From a virus (taxonomy: Duplodnaviria > Heunggongvirae > Uroviricota > Caudoviricetes): a DNA stretch of 40,041 nucleotides. Made by a program: the position numbers and the translations under genes. Below are positions 17,283 through 21,656 of the stretch, piece by piece; the first letter of the stretch is position 1; every line of letters starts with the position of its first letter. Under the pieces are notes generated by a model. That model saw only the letters and a list, made by a program, of their open reading frames with translations, was not told where the DNA came from and did not search any database. The DNA is taken from IMG/VR virus record IMGVR_UViG_2778261296_000006; one strand, given 5' to 3'.

Positions 17283-18600
17283 TCTCGATATCCTCGTCGG
17301 TAATGGATGCCCCGATGCCGGTGACGTCAGAGTTTTCGCGCAGGTCGGTCATCGCCGCCTTACGCGTCATCAATCCGTCGCCCAGCGCGGTACTGATCGC
17401 GTTGGTGGTGTTTACGGCTACCGTTGATCGGTCAACGTCTGACATTTGCCATAGCGGGTTAAACTCAAACGTGAAATCGTCCGGCAGCGGCTTTCCGAGT
17501 TCCGAGCGGTGCATAATGTCCAGTATCCGGCGCATCGGCAGTCGTAAGCGGCGCTCCTGCAATGAGCTCACCCGGTCGTAATAGTTGGCGAGGTCTGCAT
17601 CACCAGTAGAGAAGCCTTTCGGGGATTGACCGAACAGGCGTACCAGCGGGATACCAACGGCACCGCTGATCTGCTCAGCAAACTGCGAAAGAATGTCATC
17701 CAGACCACTAAAGCTGTACTGGTGGGTTTCGAACTTATCCCGCGAGTCCATGAGCGTCATACCTTCATTGCTCTGGAACTGGCGGATCAGGTCGATGTTC
17801 TTCAGCAACGCTTCGAACGCCGGGCCTCCAAGCGCGATAAGCTCGCGCAACTTCTCCACGCTATAGGTACGCAGATGCGCTTTATAGACCAGCTGCGCCG
17901 CGCCGACAGTAGCGCTATCGAACGCAGTAAGCCGATCCCAGATACGCTCTACAACCGACATTCCCCATTCGTTTTCGGTCATCTTCTGCTGGAATGGCAG
18001 CGTGACGCCATCAAAGCGGATCAGGCGGCTGTGATGGATGCGCCAGGCCGGAATGCCCGTTGCGGTGGTCACCACGTCGTAAAACTCAGGCTTGCCGAGG
18101 TCCGGCCCCATCTCTTTAATGCGGCGTGTCAGCACCGGGTTAATCATCCAGCGGTCGAGCGGGAGAATGCCCTTAAACTTGCCCTCACCAATGGTTTCGA
18201 GTCGCAGCGGGGTCATTGGTGCTTGCCCCTCGATCATGATGAAGCCGACCGCGCCGCCGTAGAGGCGCGACCATTTCAGCACGTCGTTCAGCGCATCCCA
18301 GATCTGCAACTCATCCAGTTGCGCTTCGAGGGTGCCACGGTCTTTGGCGTCAATCTCCGAAGTGATGCGAATGCCCTTTCGGGTCATATCGTCCGGGATA
18401 GCGTCGACCGCTTCACCGATAACCCACGAACCGCGATATGACCATTCCACCAGCATGCGGTTGCGGCTGGTGAAGTTCGCCCGGTAGGTCGATGCTGAAT
18501 GCTGGTTAGGCGTCTGCATCCCAACGCGGGCGACGAAGTTCTCGTAGCCGTCAGCGGTGGCCTGTGCCGTTCGCTGAGAGGATTGCTTGTTTCGTGCCAT
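17131..18600 (-). CDS. portal protein (putative)
   Basis: 489-aa ORF directly downstream of the large terminase and upstream of the Mu F-like gene. Confidence 0.5.
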   Translation of the reverse strand: MARNKQSSQRTAQATADGYENFVARVGMQTPNQHSASTYRANFTSRNRMLVEWSYRGSWVIGEAVDAIPDDMTRKGIRITSEIDAKDRGTLEAQLDELQIWDALNDVLKWSRLYGGAVGFIMIEGQAPMTPLRLETIGEGKFKGILPLDRWMINPVLTRRIKEMGPDLGKPEFYDVVTTATGIPAWRIHHSRLIRFDGVTLPFQQKMTENEWGMSVVERIWDRLTAFDSATVGAAQLVYKAHLRTYSVEKLRELIALGGPAFEALLKNIDLIRQFQSNEGMTLMDSRDKFETHQYSFSGLDDILSQFAEQISGAVGIPLVRLFGQSPKGFSTGDADLANYYDRVSSLQERRLRLPMRRILDIMHRSELGKPLPDDFTFEFNPLWQMSDVDRSTVAVNTTNAISTALGDGLMTRKAAMTDLRENSDVTGIGASITDEDIENAEDEAPPGIGELGDKPPEPPGGDPISNEPTADSAGGRGYRKWSLRWFKR

Positions 18601-20222
18601 CAGGCCTGTCTCCCTAGCAGCTCCCAGATGTTCAGGGCTGAATTCATTGGCGCGTAGCTGATCATCACCGAGTCGGCGAGGTTCGGCGACTTGGTGCCAT
18701 CAGGCTGTTTATCAACAACGATTTTCCCCACGCCATTAATGGAGTAGGTCGGCTGCGACAGCTCAATGATGAGTTTGTCTTTGCTCGCCATGGCGCTGCT
18801 GATTGAGATGATTTCGTCCGGGTTGTAGGCCATGCCCTCAACCACGGCGCGATAGGTGTTCTGGAAAAGCTTGCGTAGCCACCACCAGCTCTGGGCCTTG
18901 GCGTTGGCGAAGAAGTCCTTGTTCAGGCGTGCGGCCTGTCCGTTGTCCCCGCGCACCGCTTCATCGTCCGGATCAAATACCGCGCCGCTACCACGAAACG
19001 GTGTGGCGAGTATTGACGGTCGGCGCGCTGCGTAACGCAGTTCGTTGATGGCGCGCGCATCGCCGCGAACGCCAGCACCCAGGCCGTCCTCGTCGAAGCG
19101 AAACTCTTCGAGGTTGTCCTGTTCGCAAAAGCCGAAGACCTTCTCAACAGACTGGTAAATGTCGCTGCCAACGCCGGACCATTCACGCACGTTCTCCAGA
19201 AGGAAGCCGTGACGGGTCGAAAAGGCATTTTTGTCCCGGCCTTCGTCGGCGACGTCCATCGCGCCCAGTCGCTTGCCCGTTGGCTGAATACCAAGTTTGA
19301 TATGCGCGTCGACGGTAGCCTGTACCCAGTCGGACGGGATCAGGACGCCTTCCGCAGATGCGCTGTAGTTCAGGTCAAGTTCCTGCGCCACCACCACCGG
19401 ATTGTCGATTTTCTCGCACTCCCTGCGATACCACTCTTCATCCTTGCGCGGGTCATCTCGCCAGTGGAATGTGAATACTGGTATTTTTCCGCCGTGGCGC
19501 TTCTGCGCGAACGGGTTCGCCATGCCATTAACCGAGCTCAGGTCAATACGGCAACGGGTGGTTTGCGACAGCGCCGCATCAATCAACAGAGGACGCTGGA
19601 GGAATGCAGCTTCATCCACCAGGTAGAGCGTGGTACGGTCACCACGTCCGATATTGTCGCCAGCCTCGCCTTTGATAACCGCGCCAGTATCTGGAAACTC
19701 AACGCGCATATACGGCGCATGCTTCTTCTCGTCCCACGAACCACGAAACTCGATGGGCAGTGTTTCCACGAACTTTCGCGCCTTCCAGAACAGCGCCTTC
19801 GGGTCACCGGTGCTGTCGACGTATTCCTCTTTACGGGAGCCGAAACCGATAACCATTTCTTTGTTGAAGAGACAAAGCGAGCAGGCCAGCCCGATCGCGG
19901 TCCAACTGAGCCCCATTTCGCGGCTCTTTTCGGTGATGCCGTTCTCCAGTCGTTCGCGCCGCTCAATGATCCAGTGAATCCACTCTTCCTGTTTCGGGAA
20001 CAGCAGAAAAGGGATTGTGACCGGCAGGCCATAATCGATGTTACGCGGGTCAGTAGTCATACCCCAGTCGATGATGAACTGTGCCGGGTTGGTGCGGTAA
20101 AACTGCTTTAGTGCTGGCAGCATTTCAGGGTTCTGGCGAATGCGCTGTAAGCGCTCCATCCGCCATTCAAAAACCATCTGGTAATCAGGGTTTCTGAAAT
20201 CGAATTCAAACGGAAGAGGCAT
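18600..20222 (-). CDS. terminase large subunit
   Basis: Start taken at ATG 20222 (MPLPFEFDF...). Deviant Walker A-like [10 protein letters not shown] and Walker B-like LYLVDEAAF segments. Size and position fit TerL. Confidence 0.7.
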
Positions 20223-20293
20223 AAACAATTCCAGGCATTGAGTTTTTGCGTAACAAAGTTGATATTGTTTATGTACCAATTACAGGAGGTTTT

Positions 20294-20506
20294 ATGACAC
20301 CAGCAGTTAGCGCTAAGTTGTTGGAATTAACCAACGACCTTAACAACGAAGTAAAATTGTCTGCAATTTATGCTCTCGGCGAGAGTGCTTCAGCAACGCC
20401 AGCTCATGTAAATCGCTTACTTGATTTATCTTCGGATCTAAATCACAACGTCAAAGTCGCTGCAATTAAAGCTCTTGGCCGTATTACTCGACCAAAACAA
20501 GCCTAG
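20294..20506 (+). CDS. small protein with two HEAT-like (PBS-lyase type) repeats
   Basis: ATG at 20294 preceded by AGGAGG. 70 aa with two tandem repeats, LLELTNDLNNEVKLSAIYALGE and LLDLSSDLNHNVKVAAIKALGRI. AT-rich by eye. Opposite strand to the flanking terS/terL genes. Confidence 0.45.
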   Translation: MTPAVSAKLLELTNDLNNEVKLSAIYALGESASATPAHVNRLLDLSSDLNHNVKVAAIKALGRITRPKQA

Positions 20507-20531
20507 AATCCATAGCCGCAACATGCGGCTA

Positions 20532-21005
20532 TCACCCCATCATCTTGCGGTAAATCTCTGCGGCCTGATCTGCGGTGAGGTTGGTCGTCTCGGTCTTGAT
20601 CGGGCCGCCATCCTTGCCAGTGCTTTCAACCTTCAGCTTATTGGTGTAAGCGTCGCCAACCTCTTTCGCGGCCTGTTCAATCAGCTGCGCCGTCAGGGAG
20701 AAGTTTTTCATCCCCTCGGTTTTGGTTGCCATGCGGTCAAGCACGCGGAGGCGATAGGATTTGTTCGCGATCGGAATGTCGCTGGTTTCGGTCAGGAACC
20801 GTTCGCGCGTAGCGTGGAACATCTCGATCCACTTTTTGGCGAGCGTCTTACCGCTGGCCTTCGTGGGGTCGTGAGATTCAGCCTGCTGGCGGGTGATCTT
20901 GATCCCGAATTCTTTTTGGACAGCCTCAACCACCTGCGTCGGCGTGTCATAGCACGCAAGCGACTGAATGATGAAGGCTTTCACATCAGGTTTTAATGCA
21001 GCCAT
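20532..21005 (-). CDS. terminase small subunit (putative)
   Basis: 157-aa ORF immediately upstream of terL in the late operon. Positional. Confidence 0.4.
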   Translation of the reverse strand: MAALKPDVKAFIIQSLACYDTPTQVVEAVQKEFGIKITRQQAESHDPTKASGKTLAKKWIEMFHATRERFLTETSDIPIANKSYRLRVLDRMATKTEGMKNFSLTAQLIEQAAKEVGDAYTNKLKVESTGKDGGPIKTETTNLTADQAAEIYRKMMG

Positions 21006-21035: not shown

Positions 21036-21656
21036 TTAAGCCAGTCGCAGCATGCACGTCCCGCAAGCTCTGGCAATATCGAGATGAGCAACCTCCGCTG
21101 GCTGATTCGCCGCATCAATCATTTCCTGCACATCACGGCTCGCACCGTAACGGCGAACCACGCCCACAAACTCTTCCACGTCATGGCCGCGCAGCTTCAG
21201 CTTTGGCTGCCCTTCCTGCGTGAACTTCGGCACACCAAATTCATCTGTCGCTTGGCAGATGTGATAAAGCTCGTGCTCTATCAGCGCGCAGAATTCCAGA
21301 TCGGAACATTGCGAGCAGTAATCGGCGGCCAGCGTGATGATGAACTGCGGCACCCTGCCGAACCATTCATACATCTGCTGCTCCATCCGCGCTTTCTGCC
21401 AGCCTCCAGCCCGCATTGCCACTTCTTCCGCCTGCCCCAGCACGGACCGCCCTTTCTTCTCGAAAGTGTTCGACGCCCAGAGAAAGCACAGATCCGCTTC
21501 AAGCAAATGCTGGTGGTCAGGGTTGTAGAGGTCACCCTCATCGCTCAGGATGTGCTGATTCAGCCACTCGCCAACGTCAATGGCGGGCATTATGCTGATG
21601 TAAGGCTTCGGGTCAGGTGGCATCGTAAAATGCGCTGGTGGGTGTGGTCTGTTCAT
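21036..21656 (-). CDS. hypothetical protein with HExxH motif (possible metallopeptidase)
   Basis: 206-aa ORF containing HELYH plus several Cys residues, located between the lysis cassette and terS. Confidence 0.35.
   Translation of the reverse strand: MNRPHPPAHFTMPPDPKPYISIMPAIDVGEWLNQHILSDEGDLYNPDHQHLLEADLCFLWASNTFEKKGRSVLGQAEEVAMRAGGWQKARMEQQMYEWFGRVPQFIITLAADYCSQCSDLEFCALIEHELYHICQATDEFGVPKFTQEGQPKLKLRGHDVEEFVGVVRRYGASRDVQEMIDAANQPAEVAHLDIARACGTCMLRLA

What the first reader, a model, noticed from the sequence alone, without database searches (positions are those of the whole stretch)
20230..20531. Tiny HEAT-repeat gene on the opposite strand, inserted between terS and terL
Seen: the roughly 310-bp gap between the small and large terminase genes (both minus strand) contains a plus-strand ORF (20294-20506) with AGGAGG RBS. 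It encodes 70 aa made of two tandem repeats with the PBS-lyase HEAT-like signature (..L..DLN.EVK.AAI.ALG..). The segment is AT-rich by eye and is followed by a perfect 9-bp stem hairpin ATAGCCGCA-ACA-TGCGGCTAT (20510-20530). Inference: a moron or regulatory insertion antisense to the late transcript. Function unknown.
Basis: partly seen in the sequence, partly recalled or inferred. Interest (0 to 1): 0.5.

Follow-up and report, generated by a model that had tools for sequence, protein, structure and literature searches.

The report
Small HEAT-repeat moron between terminase genes
A real, self-contained 309-bp gene cassette sits backwards between the two DNA-packaging genes of an E. coli prophage and encodes a 70-residue, four-helix binder protein; the protein belongs to an uncharacterised family that is also carried by about 1,200 IncI resistance plasmids, and its function is unknown.

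Summary
Window 20223-20531 is a 309-bp, low-GC cassette placed exactly in the 2-nt junction between terS (DUF2280 type) and terL. About 90% of the closest relatives have the empty junction (TGA-nn-ATG). The cassette carries a phylogenetically footprinted sigma-70 promoter (TTGAGT-17-GATATT), AGGAGG, a 70-aa ORF and a 9-bp GC hairpin that abuts the terS stop.

The ORF is a genuine gene:
- Pfam HEAT_2 and HEAT score above their thresholds.
- The AlphaFold model has pLDDT 94 and shows two alphaRep-like HEAT repeats.
- dN/dS is 0.05-0.36.
- Homologues at 50-65% identity occupy the same slot beside three unrelated terS types.

The family has at least 129 clusters, all in Enterobacterales and all unnamed. 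In prophages the gene always lies head-to-head with a terminase start codon, on the strand opposite the late operon. A copy that still carries a terS 5' remnant sits beside excA in 1,215 IncI-type plasmids and is still under purifying selection there.

Best reading: a classic moron, an exchangeable accessory cassette read against the late operon. Its protein probably acts as a small binder through a conserved concave face. The target is unknown, and no literature addresses it. This is a new member of a known kind, of moderate interest.

The parts
20223..20531 (.). Whole accessory cassette (309 bp; net 307 bp relative to the empty terS|terL junction)
   Evidence: Filled and empty junctions compared. 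GC is 40-42% against 55-57% in the flanks. There is no target-site duplication and there are no terminal inverted repeats. The cassette is present in 5 of 5426 complete E. coli genomes.
20238..20243 (+). -35-like hexamer TTGAGT of the cassette's own promoter
   Evidence: TTG(A) is invariant in 10 alleles whose remaining intergenic sequence is variable, and the spacing to the -10 is a fixed 17 nt. It was not called by the strict consensus scan (8 of 12 matches).
20261..20266 (+). -10-like hexamer GATATT
   Evidence: The motif (G/C)ATATT is invariant or nearly so at the same position in diverged alleles. It ends 27-30 nt before the ATG.
20284..20289 (+). Shine-Dalgarno AGGAGG
   Evidence: Read directly. 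GGAG is invariant in all alleles.
20294..20506 (+). mini-HEAT gene: 70 aa, 7.4 kDa, pI 9.3, two HEAT_2/alphaRep-type repeats forming four helices
   Evidence: Pfam match. AF2 pLDDT 94.4 with helices 3-12, 18-30, 36-45 and 51-64. Foldseek query-normalised TM 0.8-0.84 to alphaRep structures. dN/dS 0.05-0.36. Family of at least 129 clusters.
20512..20532 (.). 9-bp GC-rich hairpin ATAGCCGCA-ACA-TGCGGCTAT between the convergent mini-HEAT and terS stops; no adjacent U-tract
   Evidence: Folds analysed. Equivalent hairpins with different stem sequences are seen in most other alleles folded, weak or absent in L029/L030. The hairpin is absent from empty sites.
18600..20222 (-). terL (large terminase). 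Its start codon is 71 nt from the mini-HEAT ATG, head-to-head.
   Evidence: PHROG 2, terminase large subunit, E = 8e-31. RefSeq product name 'TerL protein'.
20532..21005 (-). terS analogue (DUF2280). Its C-terminal tail ...AAEIYRKMMG* is shared with the unrelated terS types that pair with this TerL family.
   Evidence: Pfam DUF2280, E = 9e-50. The shared tail is shown.

Best explanation
Shown:
- Window 20223-20531 is an autonomous, horizontally exchangeable accessory cassette, a moron, inserted precisely into the 2-nt terS-stop/terL-start junction of a lambdoid myovirus-type prophage.
- It encodes a real 70-aa protein made of two HEAT repeats (an alphaRep-like four-helix solenoid).
- The protein belongs to an uncharacterised family of 66-72-aa proteins restricted to Enterobacterales mobile elements.
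- In prophages the gene always lies on the strand opposite the late operon, head-to-head with a terminase start codon: terL here, terS in a second configuration.
- A copy with a terS 5' remnant is fixed beside excA in IncI conjugative plasmids.
- The cassette is dispensable for the phage.

Inferred:
- The gene is transcribed from its own sigma-70 promoter (TTGAGT-17-GATATT) and ended or stabilised by the hairpin.
- It is therefore on in the lysogen, while the late operon is silent, and is overridden by converging Q-antiterminated late transcription after induction.
- The protein works as a small stoichiometric binder through the family-invariant concave face of helices 2 and 4 (Y26, E30, K59, R63, R66). 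Its partner would be a conserved cellular or incoming-element component, giving a carrier-state function such as lysogenic conversion or inter-element competition rather than a packaging function.
- As a side effect the insertion replaces the coupled terS/terL translation junction (SD GGGGTGA, TGA-TC-ATG) with an AT-rich leader carrying only a weak SD. terL must then initiate independently.
For: Insertion and dispensability:
- Empty sites with 98% identical flanks, including an isolated phage.
- 72 of the 80 closest TerL relatives have a 2-nt gap.

Real protein:
- Pfam HEAT_2 and HEAT above their cut-offs.
- AF2 pLDDT 94 and alphaRep matches.
- dN/dS 0.05-0.36 among phage alleles and 0.07-0.25 among plasmid alleles and between plasmid and phage alleles.

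Independent expression unit:
- In a 71-75-nt leader that otherwise varies freely, only TTGA, N17, ATATT, GGAG and ATG are invariant across 10 alleles.
- A stable hairpin with changing stem sequence follows the ORF in most alleles folded (weak or absent in L029/L030).
- GC drops by 15 points.

Exchangeable module:
- L027 and L023 have 98-100% identical flanks but cassettes only 48-70% identical. The breakpoints lie at the terS stop and in the first ~100 nt of terL.
- The same slot is used beside three unrelated terS types.

Function independent of the terminase:
- 1,215 plasmids, 1,201 of them conjugative, carry an intact homologue next to excA.
- A decayed prophage kept the gene after losing terL.

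Conserved surface:
- Helices 2 and 4 (AAIYALGE, AAIKALGR..R) are 81-100% conserved, while helices 1 and 3 vary.
Against: - No transcript or protein data exist.
- The promoter is sub-consensus (8 of 12). A score that high occurs in 45% of shuffles of a single sequence, so only the comparative footprint supports it.
- The hairpin lacks a U-tract, so termination efficiency is uncertain.
- The target and phenotype are entirely inferred. PADLOC, PHROGs, NCBIfam and the literature give no functional lead.
- The tight head-to-head association with terminase start codons is not explained by a generic moron model.
Confidence: 0.6

Rival explanations
1. The cassette is mainly a cis or antisense regulator of terminase expression. 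Its promoter and transcript, placed head-to-head with the terL (or terS) start, together with the hairpin at the terS stop, would restrain leaky terminase expression in the lysogen or retune the TerS:TerL ratio. The peptide would be secondary.
For: - The gene always abuts a terminase start codon: 71-75 nt from terL, or about 30 nt from terS.
- The terS 5' end travels with the gene even as a pseudogene remnant.
- The insertion destroys the coupled TGA-TC-ATG junction and its SD.
- The hairpin overlaps the terS stop.
Against: - Strong purifying selection acts on the protein.
- The gene is intact and under selection in IncI plasmids that have no terminase.
- The predicted transcription start lies about 50 nt from the terL ATG, so the mRNA would not cover the terL ribosome-binding site.
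- About 90% of near-identical phages do without the cassette.
Confidence: 0.15
2. The protein is an anti-defence factor expressed on entry. It would act as a free mimic of the HEAT-repeat sensor arm of bacterial NACHT/STAND (NLR-like) or NIR-HEAT immune proteins, sequestering the phage or plasmid trigger or poisoning sensor assembly.
For: - The best exhaustive-search hits are 1,000-3,000-aa NACHT-HEAT and TIR-NACHT-HEAT proteins at 44-50% identity per repeat pair.
- PADLOC HEAT-ARM_XIII gives a weak hit.
- The family occurs only on mobile elements, both phage and conjugative plasmid.
- A HEAT-repeat defence protein ('Vulcan') triggered by a lambda protein has been reported (bioRxiv 10.64898/2026.09.04.749371).
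Against: - The similarity is generic to consensus HEAT_2 repeats; artificial alphaRep proteins score as well.
- The putative binding face is conserved rather than diversifying.
- In IncI plasmids the gene sits in the trbA-excA region rather than next to the classical leading-region genes ardA/psiB/ssb (that this region is not the leading region is my own knowledge of IncI1 transfer order, not tested here).
- There is no match to any known anti-defence family.
Confidence: 0.12
3. The protein is a packaging accessory factor that binds TerS or TerL, for example to modulate pac recognition or to resist satellite hijacking.
For: - The gene lies next to terminase genes in all prophage copies.
- In configuration A it is linked to one TerL family across three terS types.
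Against: - It is on the opposite strand to the late operon.
- It is absent from most near-identical phages, including an isolated one.
- It is retained in a prophage remnant without terL and in plasmids.
Confidence: 0.05
4. The ORF is a chance reading frame in a non-coding spacer.
For: The ORF is short (70 aa) and the region is AT-rich.
Against: - Pfam matches above threshold.
- The frame is conserved at 36-65% aa identity, with dS saturated but dN about 0.3.
- The structural model is confident.
Confidence: 0.01

Closest known systems
Phage morons (Juhala/Hendrix concept; e.g. lambda bor and lom, HK97 gp15)
   Same: - An extra gene is present in some but not all closely related phages.
- It sits between late-operon genes and has its own promoter-like and terminator-like elements.
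- Its base composition is deviant, and it is dispensable for lytic growth.
- Like bor, it is read against the late operon. In the second configuration it sits in the bor-like slot between the lysis genes and terS.
   Different: - It is inserted into the normally coupled terS/terL junction.
- The product is a cytoplasmic two-HEAT-repeat protein rather than a membrane or lipoprotein.
- No phenotype is known.
- Expression in the lysogen has not been shown.
HEAT_2 / PBS-type HEAT-like repeats and the artificial alphaRep binders built from their consensus
   Same: - The repeat is about 31 residues with the motif ..LL.L..D.n..V+.aAa.ALG.
- Foldseek query-normalised TM is 0.8-0.84 with rmsd 1.1-1.9 A; the profile E-value is down to 8e-36.
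- In alphaRep proteins the second-helix face is the binding surface (own knowledge of the alphaRep library design).
   Different: - There are only two repeats and no capping repeats.
- Positions that are variable in alphaRep libraries (Y26, E30, K59, R63) are family-invariant here.
- HEAT_PBS itself scores below its cut-off.
Bacterial NLR-like NACHT-HEAT / TIR-NACHT-HEAT proteins
   Same: Their C-terminal repeats are the closest natural sequences.
   Different: There is no NTPase or effector domain, the protein is only 70 aa, and the resemblance is at the repeat-consensus level.
Unnamed 'HEAT repeat domain-containing protein' of IncI1/IncI-gamma/K plasmids (e.g. WP_000062603, between excA and pnd/trbA)
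   Same: - Same family: 41-42% aa identity to the window protein, and about 75% DNA identity to configuration-B phage alleles.
- Same size.
- It lies on the strand opposite the transfer operon.
- It is under purifying selection.
   Different: - The context is a plasmid.
- It carries a dead terS 5' fragment upstream.
- In pESBL the same slot holds hha instead.

Membership tests
Pfam HEAT_2 (PF13646) / HEAT (PF02985) | Whole-protein score at or above the curated gathering cut-off | tested here: met
   HEAT_2 scores 35.1 against 27.7 and HEAT scores 31.0 against 23.5.
Pfam HEAT_PBS (PF03130, PBS-lyase HEAT-like) | Score at or above the gathering cut-off of 20.9 | tested here: not met
   The score is 15.6 bits, E = 0.023. 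It is a related clan member only.
HEAT/alphaRep fold | Tandem antiparallel helix hairpins superposable on solved HEAT-like repeats | tested here: met
   The AF2 model has pLDDT 94.4 and four helices. Query-normalised TM is 0.80-0.84 with rmsd 1.1-1.9 A to alphaRep chains.
Phage moron | Gene present or absent among otherwise near-identical phages, i.e. an insertion between conserved genes | tested here: met
   Empty sites have 98% identical flanks. Among the 80 closest relatives, 72 are empty and 4 are filled.
Phage moron | Own promoter | tested here: inconclusive
   The phylogenetic footprint TTGA-N17-(G/C)ATATT is invariant in 10 alleles. However, it matches only 8 of 12 consensus positions, the scan did not call it, and a single sequence is not better than shuffles. 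No transcript data exist.
Phage moron | Own terminator | tested here: inconclusive
   The hairpin is stable (z -2.8 to -5.7) and recurs with different stem sequences in most alleles folded, weak or absent in L029/L030. The window allele has no U-tract.
Phage moron | Base composition different from the surrounding genes | tested here: met
   GC is 40-42% against 55-57%.
Phage moron | Expressed from the repressed prophage | not testable with these tools
   This needs strand-specific RNA-seq or a reporter fusion.
Transposable element / MITE / homing-endonuclease insertion | Target-site duplication, terminal inverted repeats, or a transposase or endonuclease gene | tested here: not met
   The junction reads GGCAT|...|TCACC, with no duplication and no terminal repeats. 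The only ORF is the 70-aa HEAT protein.
Known anti-phage defence systems (PADLOC) | Significant full-length match to a defence protein model | tested here: not met
   There is only an 18-bit partial match to repeats of a 1,972-position HEAT-ARM_XIII model.
Bacterial NLR-like (NACHT-HEAT) proteins | STAND/NACHT NTPase domain | tested here: not met
   The protein is 70 aa of repeats only. The relatives carry NACHT or TIR domains, which this protein lacks.
Hha/YmoA (alternative occupant of the IncI slot) | Sequence or profile homology | tested here: not met
   hhalign probability is 0.3%.
Known RNA families (Rfam) | Match at or near the gathering score | tested here: not met
   The only hit is 18 bits at E = 0.33.

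The most novel reading that the evidence does not exclude
The mini-HEAT family could be a new class of small effector encoded by mobile elements. It would neutralise a conserved host factor that acts against incoming or resident foreign DNA, either as a decoy of HEAT-repeat immune sensors or as a functional counterpart of the Hha-type silencing modulators with which it alternates in the IncI slot. Its obligatory head-to-head placement on a terminase start codon would provide a built-in switch: late transcription across its promoter turns it off when the phage goes lytic.
Probability: 0.15. Interest if true: 0.7.

Novelty: new member of a known kind. Interest (0 to 1): 0.42.

Why it matters
As a single locus this is an ordinary, if neatly documented, moron. 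The family it belongs to is the more useful finding. It is a 66-72-aa protein under purifying selection and has no name, no PHROG and no literature. It is carried by prophages of many Enterobacterales genera and by about 1,200 sequenced IncI-type plasmids, and IncI-type plasmids carrying it occur in roughly 14% of complete E. coli genomes. IncI plasmids are major vehicles of ESBL genes, so a conserved backbone-adjacent gene of unknown function that came from a phage is a cheap and well-defined target for knock-out, pull-down and phage- or plasmid-exclusion assays. The natural filled, empty and allelic-swap series at the terS|terL junction is also a clean system for asking how terminase subunit expression tolerates uncoupling.

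Tried and rejected
Searches that found nothing:
- tblastn of three family members against 50,697 cultured-phage records gave no match. The family is known only from prophages, metagenomic phage contigs and plasmids.
- The pattern scan of GTDB genome contigs with the family alignment confirmed nothing; this is a limit of the peptide patterns used.
- PHROGs, NCBIfam and PADLOC gave no informative family.
- Rfam found nothing on the cassette.
- Foldseek against viral structures found nothing significant.
- Literature searches on HEAT repeat with terminase, prophage, IncI1, conjugative plasmid or the RefSeq protein accessions found no paper on such a protein.
- The R64 record is not in the plasmid collection.

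Technical problems:
- The strict promoter scan found none.
- My automated promoter finder mis-placed the terL start for the window and L002. I therefore relied on the alignment.

Ideas considered and dropped:
- A mobile element of the IS, MITE or homing type: no hallmarks.
- Homology to Hha: hhalign probability 0.3%.
- A partner gene: the 145-156-aa ORF upstream of some configuration-B alleles has no family and is absent from the window type.

Full report
**Locus and observation**

The window is a lambdoid, myovirus-tailed prophage integrated next to kch. It is identical to E. coli AR_0118 NZ_CP020048.1 from about 384.6 kb.

- terL is 18600-20222(-). PHROG 2, 'terminase large subunit', matches at E = 8e-31.
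- The gene upstream in the late operon, 20532-21005(-), is a DUF2280 protein.
- The 309 bp between them (20223-20531) contain a plus-strand ORF from ATG 20294 to TAG 20506 (70 aa). AGGAGG lies 4 nt upstream of the ATG.
- A perfect 9-bp hairpin lies at 20512-20532.
- GC falls to 40-42% against 55-57% in the flanks.
- Pfam HEAT_2 (35.1 bits against 27.7) and HEAT (31.0 against 23.5) are met. HEAT_PBS (15.6 against 20.9) is not.

**It is an insertion**

- Citrobacter phage Omnitron and at least 25 E. coli prophages match the flanks at 98-99% but lack 307 bp.
- The empty junction reads ...GGCAT|GA|TCACCCC..., that is, terS TGA, 2 nt, terL ATG. The filled junction has the cassette exactly between CAT and TCA.
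- There is no target-site duplication and there are no terminal inverted repeats.
- Of the 80 closest TerL relatives in IMG/VR, 72 have the 2-nt gap and 2 a 4-nt gap (a third with the same junction type escaped my stop-motif pattern). Four have the 309-bp cassette.
- One relative (L059) has a different insert: 176 bp, non-coding, on the late strand, with a sub-threshold match to the sRNA family STnc100.
- Only 5 of 5426 complete E. coli genomes carry this cassette allele.

**It is a real gene**

- Homologues at 50-65% aa identity sit in the same slot, on the opposite strand, between terS and the same TerL family (59-100% identical). They occur in Yersinia, Salmonella, Enterobacter, Serratia, Proteus and uncultured prophages.
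- The terS partner belongs to three unrelated families: DUF2280, an HTH type beginning MALTDKQEMFCREY, and Terminase_2. All three share a roughly 30-aa C-terminal tail ending AAE.Y(R/K)KMMG*.
- Nei-Gojobori dN/dS is 0.05-0.36 for unsaturated pairs. For distant pairs dS is saturated while dN stays near 0.3.
- AlphaFold2 with an 85-sequence alignment gives pLDDT 94.4 and four helices. The best structural and sequence neighbours are artificial alphaRep proteins built from consensus HEAT-like repeats: query-normalised TM 0.80-0.84, rmsd 1.1-1.9 A, and profile E-values down to 8e-36.

**It is an autonomous, exchangeable unit**

- In an alignment of ten alleles, the 71-75-nt leader between the terL and mini-HEAT start codons varies freely. 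The exceptions are TTGA, a fixed 17-nt spacer, (G/C)ATATT, GGAG and ATG. In the window these are TTGAGT at 20238-20243 and GATATT at 20261-20266.
- This footprint is the evidence for a sigma-70 promoter. The site alone is sub-consensus: the scan did not find it, and it is not better than shuffles.
- A stable hairpin follows the ORF in most of the 18 alleles folded (it is weak or absent in L029 and L030). The stems differ (AGCCGCA/TGCGGCT, AAGCCGCC/GGCGGCTT, GCCGCTC/GAGCGGC, GGCCGC/GCGGCC), and in the four alleles tested against shuffles z-scores run from -2.8 to -5.7. The window allele lacks a U-tract.
- L027 and L023 have flanks 98-100% identical but cassettes only 48-70% identical. The breakpoints lie at the terS stop and within the first ~100 nt of terL, so this is an allelic cassette swap.

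**The wider family**

- A profile search finds at least 129 clusters (at 90% identity), most of them 66-72-aa proteins. Every one that carries a source organism name is from Enterobacterales, and none has a name beyond 'HEAT repeat domain-containing protein'.
- An exhaustive HMMER search otherwise returns only large NACHT-HEAT and TIR-NACHT-HEAT proteins. That resemblance is at the level of the repeat consensus.
- Second prophage configuration. The gene lies between the lysis genes and terS, again on the opposite strand. Its ATG is only about 30 nt from the terS ATG.
- terS remnant. Where terS is no longer adjacent, a decayed terS 5' fragment still precedes the gene: MALTDKQEMFCREY... has become MPLTDKQEIFCRGYLFDL*, MALTYKQES..* and similar.
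- Plasmid copies. The most abundant members carry such a remnant and sit between excA and pnd/trbA of IncI1, IncI-gamma and IncK plasmids, opposite to the tra operon. tblastn finds them in 1,215 PLSDB plasmids, of which 1,201 are conjugative. There are 745 plasmid places among 5,426 E. coli genomes.
- Selection outside phages. These plasmid alleles are about 75% identical in DNA to the phage alleles and remain under purifying selection, with omega 0.07-0.25.
- Alternative occupant. In pESBL the same slot, with shared flanks, holds hha instead. hha is not homologous to mini-HEAT.
- Retention without terL. A decayed prophage has lost terL but kept the gene.
- Absence from cultured phages. No record in the cultured-phage collection contains a family member.

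**Interpretation**

The anatomy is that of a moron. It is read against the late operon, so it is probably expressed in the lysogen and occluded by late transcription after induction.

The product is too small to be anything but a binding module. The face that carries the randomised binding positions in alphaRep proteins (helices 2 and 4) is the conserved part of the family: AAIYALGE and AAIKALGR..R are 81-100% conserved, whereas helices 1 and 3 vary. This argues for one conserved partner.

Survival of the gene in plasmids and in a terL-less remnant argues that the partner is not the phage's own terminase. Retention of the terS 5' fragment is best explained if that fragment provides the promoter. 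In configuration B, the sequence TGcCATATT forms an extended -10 that overlaps the terS start codon; this is an inference.

The insertion also removes the coupled terS/terL junction and its GGGGTGA SD, leaving terL with a weak SD in AT-rich DNA. Whether that matters has not been tested.

Rival readings cannot be excluded, but each has specific evidence against it:
- Antisense or cis control of terminase expression.
- An anti-defence decoy of HEAT-type sensors.
- A packaging accessory factor.

**Verdict**

It is a new member of a known kind (a moron), belonging to an uncharacterised but fairly widespread family on mobile elements. Interest is moderate.

Noticed in passing
window 20532-21005 (-); L002 4527-5099; L004 6252-7274; L026 4238-4732: Three unrelated small-terminase N-terminal domains (DUF2280, an HTH type starting MALTDKQEMFCREY, and Terminase_2) all end in the same roughly 30-aa tail ...DG(G/A)P(I/V)(K/R)TE..(T/S)P(D/E)(Q/E)AAE.Y(R/K)KMMG* when paired with this TerL family. 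terS therefore looks modular, with a common tail that presumably binds TerL. This supports DUF2280 proteins being small terminase subunits.
   Followed up: partly
L059 2325-2500: Another relative has a different insert at the same terS|terL junction. It is 176 bp, has no ORF and lies on the late strand. It ends in a terminator-like hairpin followed by GGAG before terL, and it gives a full-length but sub-threshold Rfam match to sRNA STnc100 (31.8 bits against 47, E = 2e-5). The junction seems to be a small-cassette hotspot.
   Followed up: partly
L133 5940-6000; L031, L033, L037, L038, L043 upstream of the HEAT ATG: Configuration-B and IncI-plasmid alleles carry a decayed 5' fragment of a phage terS gene directly upstream of the mini-HEAT start codon. 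This indicates phage-to-plasmid capture, and suggests that the fragment supplies the promoter.
   Followed up: partly
L141 3320-3529 (pESBL) versus L124 3750-4210: In IncI plasmids the slot next to excA holds either hha (pESBL) or the terS remnant plus mini-HEAT. The flanks are shared, including the hairpin AAAAGCCGGCTCAT(T/C)TGAACCGGC. In the pESBL Tn-seq table of PMC4288162, hha scored 0.59 for 'essential for maintenance'.
   Followed up: partly
window 20246-20506: RefSeq annotates this ORF from TTG 20246 in AR_0118 (86 aa, WP_136769304). In other genomes the same gene is annotated as 70 aa (WP_032214630). Conservation supports the ATG at 20294.
   Followed up: yes
window 21036-21656 (-): The gene upstream of terS is a Pfam 'putative phage metallopeptidase' (E = 6e-43), but its PHROG (513) is labelled 'transposase', which looks like a doubtful label.
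   Followed up: no
L134-L137 3416-3886; L038 3350-3829: In a common configuration-B prophage type, a 145-156-aa ORF with no family in Pfam, PHROGs or NCBIfam lies on the same strand just upstream of the terS remnant and mini-HEAT. It could be a second cargo gene or an operon partner.
   Followed up: partly
L011 4915-6857: A decayed prophage next to a barnase/barstar pair has lost terL, with the portal remnant now abutting the junction, but keeps an intact mini-HEAT gene and terS.
   Followed up: no
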